From the NCBI GenBank assembly GCA_947454155.1, contig CANGIT010000013.1, positions 27,495-91,494 on the forward strand: DNA of 64,000 bases, written 5' to 3'. Shown piece by piece: positions 42,369-42,920 of this stretch (the first letter of the stretch is position 1; the number at the start of each line of letters is the position of its first letter). The DNA comes from Chitinophagaceae bacterium (lineage in GTDB: Bacteria > Bacteroidota > Bacteroidia > Chitinophagales > Chitinophagaceae). The notes below the pieces were generated by a model. It was not told the origin of the DNA. It saw only the letters and a program-made list of their open reading frames with translations, and made no database searches. Both the position numbers and the translations under genes were made by a program.

Positions 42369-42920
42369 ATGATTCTTTTAAAAATTTTAAGGATGGCAAA
42401 AATAGGGAAAAATTAAGTATGAACAAACTGTGGATAACCTTGCAAGCACTTAATAATTAAGCCAAAAAGTGATCATGTCATTTTGATTTTTTCTTTTTTC
42501 TTTTTCAACAAGGCTGATGTGTATAACCATGTTTTATGTGAATAAGTATAGATTTTTAAAATTATTCCCTTGATAAAATGTGAAAGAAATTGATGTTGTT
42601 TCATGATTTCGACCTTTTCATGATTTTGGTTACATTTTATCCTGACCAAATTCACATAGTTGGATGAAAAAATGATGATTTAATTTTACAGCACTCGTTT
42701 TATTAACTGGCGTGAATTATTCACTTCATTTTTTTACAAAATATTAATATTCAATAGTTTATTATTCATATGTAGCCAACAAAAATGTTATTGGAGTGTT
42801 GATAAGGGTGGATAACTTTGATTTTTAAAATAAACAAGTGGTTGATTGAAAATTTTTCCACTAATCCACACCCCTAATAGTAATAGGTATTTATAAAAAA
42901 TAATAGTATTAATAGTTATT
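42369..42920. other. oriC: Probable chromosomal replication origin (oriC)
   Basis: Three perfect TTATNCACA boxes on the minus strand (42429, 42518, 42537), at least six one-mismatch boxes (42717, 42762, 42797, 42807, 42854, 42862) and an AT-rich DnaA-trio module at 42854-42910. Confidence 0.8.

What the first reader, a model, noticed from the sequence alone, without database searches (positions are those of the whole stretch)
42369..42920. Probable oriC, with no dnaA in the window, between the PpiD-like gene and nadA
Seen: a 550-bp AT-rich gap with three perfect DnaA boxes (TGTGGATAA 42429, TGTGTATAA 42518, TGTGAATAA 42537) and at least six one-mismatch boxes. parS sites and mnmG lie 5 kb away. 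Hand-counted sample lines are C-rich on the left (36301: C23/G10; 32101: C20/G14) and G-rich on the right (47821: G20/C5). Known: oriC is a DnaA-box cluster usually near gidA/parS and at the GC-skew switch. Inference: this is the chromosomal origin, of a kind little characterised in Bacteroidota.
Basis: partly seen in the sequence, partly recalled or inferred. Interest (0 to 1): 0.75.

Follow-up and report, generated by a model that had tools for sequence, protein, structure and literature searches.

The report
Chromosome replication origin beside nadA
The 552-bp gap between ppiD and nadA is very probably this Chitinophagaceae bacterium's chromosomal replication origin, built like the Bacillus subtilis origin; matching elements were already predicted in two cultured relatives, so it is a sound but ordinary call.

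Summary

- **DnaA boxes.** The gap (42369-42920) is the densest DnaA-box cluster in the 2.92-Mb assembly. It holds 6 boxes with at most 1 mismatch, against 0.29 expected; 0 of 5000 shuffles reach 6.
- **Unwinding module.** Its nadA end carries the genome's only basal unwinding system: tandem boxes TTTTCCACT/TAATCCACA, CCC, four DnaA-trios (CTA ATA GTA ATA), then the least stable duplex of the gap.
- **parS.** The assembly's only two parS sites lie 4.7 kb away.
- **Relatives.** Eight box positions and the module are conserved across 45 Chitinophagaceae-type loci. In a complete Edaphocola chromosome the same module has different flanking genes. There it sits at the edge of the V-shaped GC-skew minimum, with dnaA 2 Mb away.
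- **Other phyla.** The same 18-nt core lies right beside dnaA in Patescibacteria and Firmicutes.

Weak points:
- The window's own skew only flattens at the gap; it turns positive 13 kb further on.
- One same-genus genome shows no skew switch at its locus.

Novelty is low. Pelliciari et al. 2021 (from DoriC-predicted origins) list near-identical elements for Chitinophaga pinensis and Niastella koreensis. No experiment exists for this family.

The parts
42369..42920 (.). Whole candidate oriC: the 552-bp AT-rich intergenic region between the divergent genes ppiD and nadA
   Evidence: GC is 0.257. It is the top DnaA-box cluster of the 2.92-Mb genome. A gap of 466-796 bp is kept in 45 loci.
40236..42368 (-). 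ppiD-like periplasmic chaperone/PPIase gene (left flank)
   Evidence: Pfam SurA_N_2 plus Rotamase domains.
42397..42427 (-). Likely ppiD promoter, TTTG-N19-TATTTTTG (Bacteroidota -33/-7 type). It abuts the perfect DnaA box.
   Evidence: Read from the sequence. GGCAAAAATAGGG is at least 75-90% conserved in 45 loci. The promoter consensus is from my own knowledge, so this part is inference.
42429..42437 (-). DnaA box TTATCCACA (perfect); probable high-affinity anchor
   Evidence: A box with at most 2 mismatches occupies the same alignment columns in 29 of 44 relatives.
42502..42510 (+). DnaA box TTTTCAACA (2 mismatches). The family consensus at this position is TTATCCACA.
   Evidence: 28 of 44 relatives.
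42518..42526 (-). DnaA box TTATACACA (1 mismatch)
   Evidence: 26 of 44 relatives.
42537..42545 (-). DnaA box TTATTCACA (1 mismatch)
   Evidence: 33 of 44 relatives.
42648..42719 (.). Three degenerate box-like sites with 3 mismatches each: AAATTCACA 42648-42656 (+), TTATTAACT 42700-42708 (+), TAATTCACG 42711-42719 (-). They sit at partly conserved positions.
   Evidence: Conserved ACA / TTATTAAC / TGTGAATAA columns. Probably low-affinity sites; this is inference.
42797..42805 (-). DnaA box TTATCAACA (1 mismatch)
   Evidence: 25 of 44 relatives.
42807..42815 (-). DnaA box TTATCCACC (1 mismatch)
   Evidence: 36 of 44 relatives.
42854..42870 (+). Tandem same-orientation box pair TTTTCCACT / TAATCCACA, overlapping by 1 nt. 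It corresponds to B. subtilis boxes 6/7 (TTATCCACA AATCCACA).
   Evidence: 35 and 29 of 44 relatives. B. subtilis sequence from the supplement of PMC8287927.
42871..42873 (+). GC spacer CCC between the box pair and the trios
   Evidence: at least 90% conserved.
42874..42885 (-). Four DnaA-trios. The top strand reads CTA ATA GTA ATA, so the bottom strand reads 3'-GAT TAT CAT TAT-5'. This is the predicted single-strand binding track for the DnaA filament.
   Evidence: the only one of 105 tandem box pairs in the genome followed by 3 or more NTA trios. At least 90% conserved. Trio definition from PMC8287927 and PMC6669920.
42886..42920 (.). AT-rich tract running up to the nadA start codon; predicted DNA unwinding element
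   Evidence: The least stable 30-mer and 50-mer of the gap, and the second least stable 50-mer of the 64-kb window, is 42873-42923.
42921..43925 (+). nadA (quinolinate synthase), right flank
   Evidence: Pfam NadA, E = 1.6e-122.
47589..47644 (.). Two parS palindromes, (T)GTTCCACGTGGAACA, 40 bp apart in the ybeY-mnmG gap
   Evidence: They are the only GTTNCACGTGNAAC sites in the whole assembly. A ParB gene is present on C11.
47675..49543 (+). mnmG (gidA), a classic origin-proximal gene
   Evidence: Pfam GIDA, E = 2.6e-161.

Best explanation
The gap is the single chromosomal replication origin (oriC) of a Chitinophagaceae bacterium (Ferruginibacter-like MAG).

Proposed mechanism, all steps inferred from the B. 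subtilis and H. pylori model:
1. DnaA occupies the perfect box at 42429 and the conserved boxes at 42502, 42518, 42537, 42797 and 42807.
2. The tandem pair at 42854-42870 points a DnaA-ATP filament rightwards over the CCC spacer.
3. The filament extends onto the four DnaA-trios on the bottom strand (42874-42885).
4. This stretches and melts the adjacent AT-rich tract (42886-42920), where the helicase is loaded.
5. ParB loaded at the twin parS sites 4.7 kb away then organises and segregates the new origins.

Shown here: the sequence architecture, its uniqueness in the genome, its conservation, and its position at a skew minimum in a relative. Inferred: DnaA binding, the melting site and origin firing.
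For: 1. Box cluster. It is the top DnaA-box cluster of the genome, with 6 boxes against 0.29 expected in shuffles, 0 of 5000 reaching 6. It holds the only perfect box in the window.

2. Unwinding module. Of 105 tandem box pairs in the genome, only this one is followed by 3 or more NTA trios; it has 4. In the notation of Pelliciari et al. 2021 it reads AAAAGGTGA TTAGGTGT GGG GATTATCATTAT. Their table lists B. subtilis as AATAGGTGT TTAGGTGT CCGG GATGATAAT..., N. koreensis (ORI95030423) as AATAGGTGA TTAAGTGT CGG CATTATCATTAT, and C. pinensis (ORI93020100) as CAAAAGTGT ATAAGTGT CGG GATTATCATCAC.

3. Duplex stability. The least stable duplex of the gap is exactly the trio plus AT tract.

4. parS. 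The only two parS sites of the assembly are 4.7 kb away, and ParB is encoded. parS lies 4-7 kb from the homologous module in three other genomes and nowhere else in the 400-1200 kb read from each.

5. Conservation. Eight box positions and the module are conserved in at least 25 of 44 relatives, while the spacers between them diverge.

6. Autonomy of the module. In the complete 5.31-Mb Edaphocola chromosome the same module lies in a 735-bp gap with unrelated flanking genes. It sits at the left edge of the basin of a clean V-shaped cumulative GC skew. The basin spans 3.738-3.798 Mb, and the fine minimum is 44.5 kb from the module. In Ilyomonas the V minimum is 63 kb away.

7. Other phyla. The 18-nt core ACASCCCTARTAGTARTA also hits 15 loci in Patescibacteria, Erysipelothrix, Holdemania and Acinetobacter. 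All 15 are 95-294 bp from dnaA, and 14 lie downstream on the dnaA strand, which is the canonical oriC site.

8. Own skew. On contig C13 the orientation-corrected cumulative skew falls for 62 kb and stops falling at window 43-45 kb; the GC3 minimum is at window 44988. The dnaA contig C1 has monotonic skew, so there is no switch at dnaA.
Against: - Within the window the skew to the right of the gap is about 0, not positive. The raw cumulative minimum is 13 kb further right.
- The corrected AT skew on the left arm of C13 has the opposite sign to what the other contigs predict. This is unexplained.
- In a +/-45-kb V-score scan the gap ranks only 103rd of 2113 positions. C6 at 127 kb scores higher, but that is explained by a 30-kb low-GC island plus giant genes. 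C12 at 53-62 kb also has arms of the right sign.
- In one same-genus genome (G016) 400 kb around the homologous locus shows no skew minimum.
- The five genes between window 33.2 and 39.7 kb, left of the gap, are head-on to the proposed forks.
- There is no experimental or coverage evidence. The assembly is in 32 contigs, so a global skew curve cannot be drawn.
Confidence: 0.88

Rival explanations
1. The gap is only a divergent promoter region for ppiD and nadA, where DnaA acts as a transcription factor. The true origin lies elsewhere, for example upstream of dnaA on C1.
For: A good Bacteroidota-type ppiD promoter abuts the perfect box. The last 35 nt before the nadA ATG are more conserved than an unwinding element needs. 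The dnaA upstream region also has a perfect box and a few weak ones. The skew in the window itself is not decisive.
Against: The module keeps its boxes, trios, AT tract and nearby parS in Edaphocola, where neither nadA nor ppiD is adjacent. There it sits at the skew minimum. The box-pair plus trio architecture is unique in the genome. The C1 skew is monotonic through dnaA. In Edaphocola dnaA lies 2.03 Mb from the skew minimum.
Confidence: 0.05
2. The gap is an auxiliary DnaA-binding locus (datA-, DARS- or DBC-like) that titrates or recharges DnaA near the origin, but is not the site of unwinding.
For: Such clusters exist in E. coli and B. subtilis and can be origin-proximal (my own knowledge). 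The skew basin spans 13 kb in this genome and 60 kb in Edaphocola, so the exact firing site is not fixed by skew.
Against: Titration sites are not known to carry a directional box pair plus DnaA-trios plus an AT-rich tract (my own knowledge). No other site in the genome has that architecture. The other strong cluster, the C18 tandem array, fits a titration role better.
Confidence: 0.05
3. The boxes are a chance accumulation of box-like words in an AT-rich spacer.
For: AT-rich DNA raises the background of TTAT/ATAA words. Across the whole window, 26 boxes with at most 1 mismatch is not above the shuffle expectation.
Against: 0 of 5000 dinucleotide shuffles of the gap reach 6 boxes. The box positions are conserved across genera.
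Confidence: 0.01

Closest known systems
Bacillus subtilis oriC incC region / basal unwinding system, BUS (Richardson 2016; Richardson 2019, PMC6669920; Pelliciari 2021, PMC8287927)
   Same: Tandem same-orientation boxes are followed by a short GC spacer, then repeated trios with a central A on the bound strand, then an AT-rich tract, in the same order and polarity. The second box, TTAGGTGT in the paper's notation, is identical.
   Different: It is not in the dnaA-dnaN gap; here it lies between ppiD and nadA, with dnaA on another contig. It has only 4 trios (GAT TAT CAT TAT), against 9 listed for B. subtilis. The first box of the pair is weaker (2 mismatches). No function has been tested.
BUS entries for the DoriC-predicted origins of Chitinophaga pinensis DSM 2588 (ORI93020100) and Niastella koreensis GR20-10 (ORI95030423), as listed in Pelliciari 2021
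   Same: Same family and near-identical BUS strings: a box pair, a 3-nt CGG/GGG spacer, then GAT/CAT TAT CAT .... A MAG labelled C. pinensis has the same ppiD-module-nadA layout.
   Different: Those are computational predictions for cultured strains. I could not read the flanking genes of the two reference genomes themselves. The window is an uncultured relative in another genus.
E. coli oriC (gidA/mnmG-mioC locus)
   Same: The origin is unlinked from dnaA. mnmG lies a few kb away. There is an array of high- and low-affinity DnaA boxes next to an AT-rich unwinding element (my own knowledge).
   Different: From my own knowledge, E. coli has 13-mer repeats, IHF/Fis sites and GATC/SeqA control, and no chromosomal parS. 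Here the unwinding module is of the box-pair/trio type, and parS sites are adjacent.

Membership tests
Bacterial DnaA-dependent chromosomal origin (oriC) | A statistically significant cluster of DnaA boxes in a non-coding region | tested here: met
   6 boxes with at most 1 mismatch in 552 bp against 0.29 expected, 0 of 5000 shuffles reaching 6. Top cluster in the genome.
Bacterial DnaA-dependent chromosomal origin (oriC) | Location at the strand-compositional (GC-skew) switch from negative to positive | tested here: inconclusive
   Own contig: the decline stops at the gap, a flat basin runs to +13 kb, then the curve rises, but the V is weak. Homologous module: at the edge of the V minimum in the complete Edaphocola chromosome; 63 kb off in Ilyomonas; no switch in G016.
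Bacterial DnaA-dependent chromosomal origin (oriC) | An AT-rich DNA unwinding element next to the boxes | tested here: met
   42873-42923 is the least stable 50-mer of the gap and the second least stable of the window.
Bacterial DnaA-dependent chromosomal origin (oriC) | Origin-proximal parS and ParB | tested here: met
   The only two parS sites in the assembly are 4.7 kb away. The linkage is kept in three other genomes. ParB is present.
Bacterial DnaA-dependent chromosomal origin (oriC) | Replication actually starts here (coverage peak, autonomous replication, DnaA binding) | not testable with these tools
No wet-lab data exist.
Basal unwinding system (BUS) as defined by Pelliciari et al. 2021 | A DnaA box with at most 2 mismatches, optionally with a second tandem box of at most 4 mismatches in the same orientation | tested here: met
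   TTTTCCACT (2 mismatches) and TAATCCACA (1 mismatch), both on the plus strand. Criteria.
Basal unwinding system (BUS) as defined by Pelliciari et al. 2021 | A spacer of at most 16 bp from the first located box to the first trio | tested here: met
   Second box (8 nt) plus CCC gives 11 nt, the same as N. koreensis.
Basal unwinding system (BUS) as defined by Pelliciari et al. 2021 | At least 3 consecutive trios with a central adenine on the strand read 3' to 5' (consensus 3'-GAT-5') | tested here: met
   3'-GAT TAT CAT TAT-5', four trios. At least 90% conserved in 45 loci.
Basal unwinding system (BUS) as defined by Pelliciari et al. 2021 | DnaA filament binding to the trios and strand separation | not testable with these tools
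   Needs purified DnaA and unwinding assays.

The most novel reading that the evidence does not exclude
In Chitinophagaceae the unwinding element may double as the nadA leader. In all 56 loci where nadA is adjacent, the BUS core lies on the nadA strand 35-138 bp (median 49) before the nadA match. The last ~35 nt before the ATG are more conserved than an AT-rich melting tract needs. Transcription or translation initiation of this NAD-biosynthesis gene and origin melting could therefore be mechanically coupled. That would resemble gidA/mioC transcription at E. coli oriC, but with the gene start inside the unwinding element. The 25-bp x 6.5 tandem array of TTATCCACA boxes on contig C18 could then be a separate DnaA-titration site.
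Probability: 0.12. Interest if true: 0.55.

Novelty: new member of a known kind. Interest (0 to 1): 0.3.

Why it matters
- **Annotation.** It anchors the replication origin of an uncultured Chitinophagaceae genome. That helps in ordering contigs, setting coordinate zero and making growth-rate (peak-to-trough) estimates from metagenomes.
- **A search handle.** The family shares a compact, recognisable origin module: box array, box pair, CCC, trios. It moves with parS rather than with dnaA, nadA or ppiD, so it can be used to find origins in Bacteroidota MAGs.
- **Breadth of the BUS.** Nearly the same 18-nt core lies beside dnaA in Patescibacteria and Firmicutes, which fits the view that the BUS is ancestral.
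- **Limits.** It does not change what is known about initiation. Matching BUS elements were already predicted for two cultured relatives, and nothing here has been tested experimentally.

Tried and rejected
1. **Skew in a same-genus genome.** GC skew over 400 kb of G016 showed no minimum at its locus. I keep this as evidence against the oriC reading; it is not explained.

2. **V-score scan of the own genome.** The strongest V is at C6, about 127 kb. I rejected it as an origin. It is the junction of a 30-kb low-GC (0.25-0.33) all-minus-strand gene island with giant genes of 2,600-5,000 aa, and it has no box cluster or parS.

3. **dnaA-upstream region (C1:181.5-181.85 kb) as origin.** It has one perfect box and a few weak ones, no trio module, and monotonic skew. 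It is probably an autoregulation site.

4. **C18:37150-37320 box cluster as origin.** It is a 25-bp tandem repeat with all boxes on one strand. There is no skew switch, parS or trios.

5. **First BUS scan.** It missed the site because the two boxes overlap by 1 nt. Allowing a gap of -1 fixed this.

6. **AT skew.** It gave a sign on the left arm of C13 opposite to the GC skew, so I did not use it.

7. **Literature.** A search for 'DnaA-trio + oriC + Bacteroidetes' found no paper. The relevant data were in the supplement of PMC8287927.

Full report
**What is there**

The window is contig C13:27495-91494 of a 2.92-Mb, 32-contig assembly with GC about 0.42. Loci sharing its sequences are named Chitinophagaceae or Chitinophagales, with Ferruginibacter-labelled MAGs among those whose PpiD match is closest.

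The finding's coordinates are exact. A 552-bp gap (42369-42920, GC 0.257) separates a ppiD-like chaperone gene on the minus strand from nadA on the plus strand. mnmG is at 47675-49543.

**Check of the observation**

- TGTGGATAA at 42429 is the only perfect TTATCCACA in the 64-kb window.
- The boxes at 42518 and 42537 each have one mismatch. They are perfect only to the relaxed consensus TTATNCACA.
- Seven of the window's 26 boxes with at most 1 mismatch lie in 42353-42870.
- Inside the gap there are 6, against 0.29 expected from dinucleotide shuffles; 0 of 5000 shuffles reach 6.
- Genome-wide this is the densest cluster.
Mean skew is -0.036 left of the gap and -0.004 right of it.

**Anatomy**

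Alignments of 10 same-genus loci and of 45 family-level loci show the spacers diverging while box positions stay fixed. Eight of the window's boxes have a box with at most 2 mismatches in the same columns in 25-36 of 44 relatives. These are 42429-, 42502+, 42518-, 42537-, 42797-, 42807-, 42854+ and 42862+. Three further degenerate sites (42648, 42700, 42711) sit on partly conserved columns.

The left end carries a conserved TTTG-N19-TATTTTTG on the minus strand (42397-42427). I read this as the ppiD promoter, using the Bacteroidota promoter consensus from my own knowledge.

The right end reads TTTTCCACT/TAATCCACA (overlapping by 1 nt), then CCC, then CTA ATA GTA ATA, then a 35-bp AT tract that runs into the nadA ATG. 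On the bottom strand the trios read 3'-GAT TAT CAT TAT-5'.

This is the basal unwinding system (BUS) layout defined by Richardson and Pelliciari: box(es), a spacer of at most 16 bp, and at least 3 trios with a central A. In the paper's notation:

| Organism | First box | Second box | Spacer | Trios |
|---|---|---|---|---|
| This window | AAAAGGTGA | TTAGGTGT | GGG | GATTATCATTAT |
| B. subtilis 168 | AATAGGTGT | TTAGGTGT | CCGG | GATGATAATGAAGATGAT... |

The B. subtilis row is.

Of 105 tandem box pairs in the whole genome, this is the only one followed by 3 or more NTA trios. The least stable 30-mer and 50-mer of the gap is 42873-42923, the trios plus the AT tract. It is also the second least stable 50-mer in the window.

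**Origin-proximal markers**

The motif GTTNCACGTGNAAC occurs only twice in the assembly, at window 47590 and 47630, 4.7 kb from the gap. A canonical ParB (ParB_N, HTH_ParB and ParB_C domains) is encoded on C11. dnaA is on C1 at about 181.9 kb. Its contig shows monotonic positive skew, so there is no switch at dnaA.

**Skew in the own genome**

I fitted a replication effect (R = 0.044) and a coding-strand effect (T = 0.021) on contigs with clear arms. After correction, the cumulative skew on C13 behaves as follows:
- it falls from 10 kb to 72.5 kb (window 45.0 kb);
- it is flat to 83 kb;
- it then rises to the contig end;
- the GC3 version bottoms at window 44988.

This fits a switch at or just right of the gap, but the signal is weak. 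The gap ranks 103rd of 2113 positions for a +/-45-kb V score. The corrected AT skew of the left arm has the wrong sign.

The strongest V, at C6 about 127 kb, is a compositional artefact. It marks the junction of a 30-kb low-GC gene island with giant genes.

**Relatives**

The core ACASCCCTARTAGTARTA was scanned over one genome per species. Of the 80 loci returned:
- 59 have nadA and/or ppiD next to the motif; wherever nadA is adjacent (56 loci) the motif is on the nadA strand, 35-138 bp before the nadA match;
- 15 are from Patescibacteria, Erysipelothrix, Holdemania or Acinetobacter and lie 95-294 bp from dnaA; 14 of these are downstream on the dnaA strand, the canonical oriC position;
- 6 have none of these genes nearby.

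About 140 chance hits to this pattern are expected in 596 Gb, so isolated hits mean little. Adjacency to dnaA cannot be chance.

The decisive case is the complete Edaphocola chromosome (OZ245855.1, 5,308,229 bp).
- **Same module, other flanks.** The module sits at 3,737,771 in a 735-bp gap with two perfect boxes. It is flanked by a PhaC-like hydrolase and an ABC ATPase, not by nadA (3.34 Mb) or ppiD (3.68 Mb).
- **Global skew.** Twenty 20-kb samples show mostly negative skew from 1.62 to 4.03 Mb and mostly positive skew from 4.28 Mb round to 1.38 Mb. The negative 4.01-Mb sample proved to be a local dip in the 800-kb read.
- **Local skew.** A contiguous 800 kb shows a clean V. It declines steadily to 3.738 Mb, has a flat basin to 3.798 Mb (fine minimum at 3,782,271), then rises steadily to 4.34 Mb. 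The module is at the edge of the basin, within 0.9% of the chromosome length of the minimum.
- **parS and dnaA.** Three parS sites lie 5-5.8 kb away, with none elsewhere in the 1.2 Mb read. dnaA is at 1.704 Mb, close to the skew maximum.

Because the module, the skew minimum and parS stay together while nadA and ppiD do not, the module is an autonomous origin element. It is not simply a nadA or ppiD operator.

In Ilyomonas the V minimum is 63 kb from the module and parS is 3.9 kb away.

In the same-genus genome G016, parS is 6.7 kb away, but no skew minimum is seen within 400 kb. That is the main discordant result, and I could not resolve it.

**Comparison with what is known**

The supplementary table of Pelliciari et al. 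2021 lists near-identical BUS strings for two DoriC-predicted origins in this family:
- Chitinophaga pinensis DSM 2588 (ORI93020100): CAAAAGTGT ATAAGTGT CGG GATTATCATCAC;
- Niastella koreensis GR20-10 (ORI95030423): AATAGGTGA TTAAGTGT CGG CATTATCATTAT.

So this origin type has already been predicted computationally for cultured Chitinophagaceae. I found no experimental work on it. The window is a new member of a known kind.

**Verdict**

oriC, confidence about 0.88. The rivals are a DnaA-regulated divergent promoter, an auxiliary DnaA-titration locus, and chance. All are disfavoured by the unique directional box-pair/trio module, its conservation independent of flanking genes, and its link to parS and to a skew minimum.

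**Not run**

Noticed in passing
G000 contig C18:37150-37320 (outside the window; locus L002 7152-7314): A tandem array of 25 bp x 6.5 copies, consensus ACCAACTCATTATCCACATTAGCAC. Each unit carries a DnaA box (TTATCCACA or a 1-mismatch variant), all on one strand. It lies after a terminator-like hairpin and about 70 bp upstream of an aminotransferase-like ORF. It is the second densest box cluster in the genome and could be a DnaA-titration (datA-like) site. One exact 21-nt match was found, in Hymenobacter guriensis.
   Followed up: partly
G000 contig C1:181500-181855 (outside the window; locus L003): The dnaA upstream region has one perfect TTATCCACA (C1:181795) and a few weaker boxes but no trio module. 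It is probably a dnaA autoregulation site. C1 has monotonic positive skew.
   Followed up: partly
Edaphocola sp. chromosome OZ245855.1 (G041), dnaA at 1,704,014: dnaA lies about 2.03 Mb from the predicted origin on a 5.31-Mb chromosome. It is just past the positive-to-negative skew switch, which falls between 1.38 and 1.62 Mb, so it is terminus-proximal.
   Followed up: partly
window 43000-47600: The 4.5 kb right of the origin has unusually low GC (0.29-0.33, against about 0.40-0.44 for most of the window). It holds nadA, a DUF3089 gene, a chromate-transporter-like gene, a cytidylyltransferase-like gene and ybeY.
   Followed up: no
G000 contig C6:95900-181700 (outside the window): A 30-kb island of very low GC (0.25-0.33) has all its genes on the minus strand. 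It is followed by a run of giant minus-strand ORFs (5018, 2602, 1946, 2855, 1312, 2374 and 1504 aa). Together they create a false V in the GC skew.
   Followed up: partly
window 1-42368 (C13 left arm): The orientation-corrected AT skew on the left arm has the sign opposite to that expected from the GC skew and from the other contigs. The cause is unknown.
   Followed up: no
loci L037, L049, L058, L070, L073, L083, L093, L104, L107-L109 (Patescibacteria/CPR): The dnaA-downstream regions of many CPR genomes carry an 18-nt box-end/GCCC/trio core identical to the Chitinophagaceae one (ACASCCCTARTAGTARTA). This is a striking cross-phylum identity of the unwinding core.
   Followed up: partly
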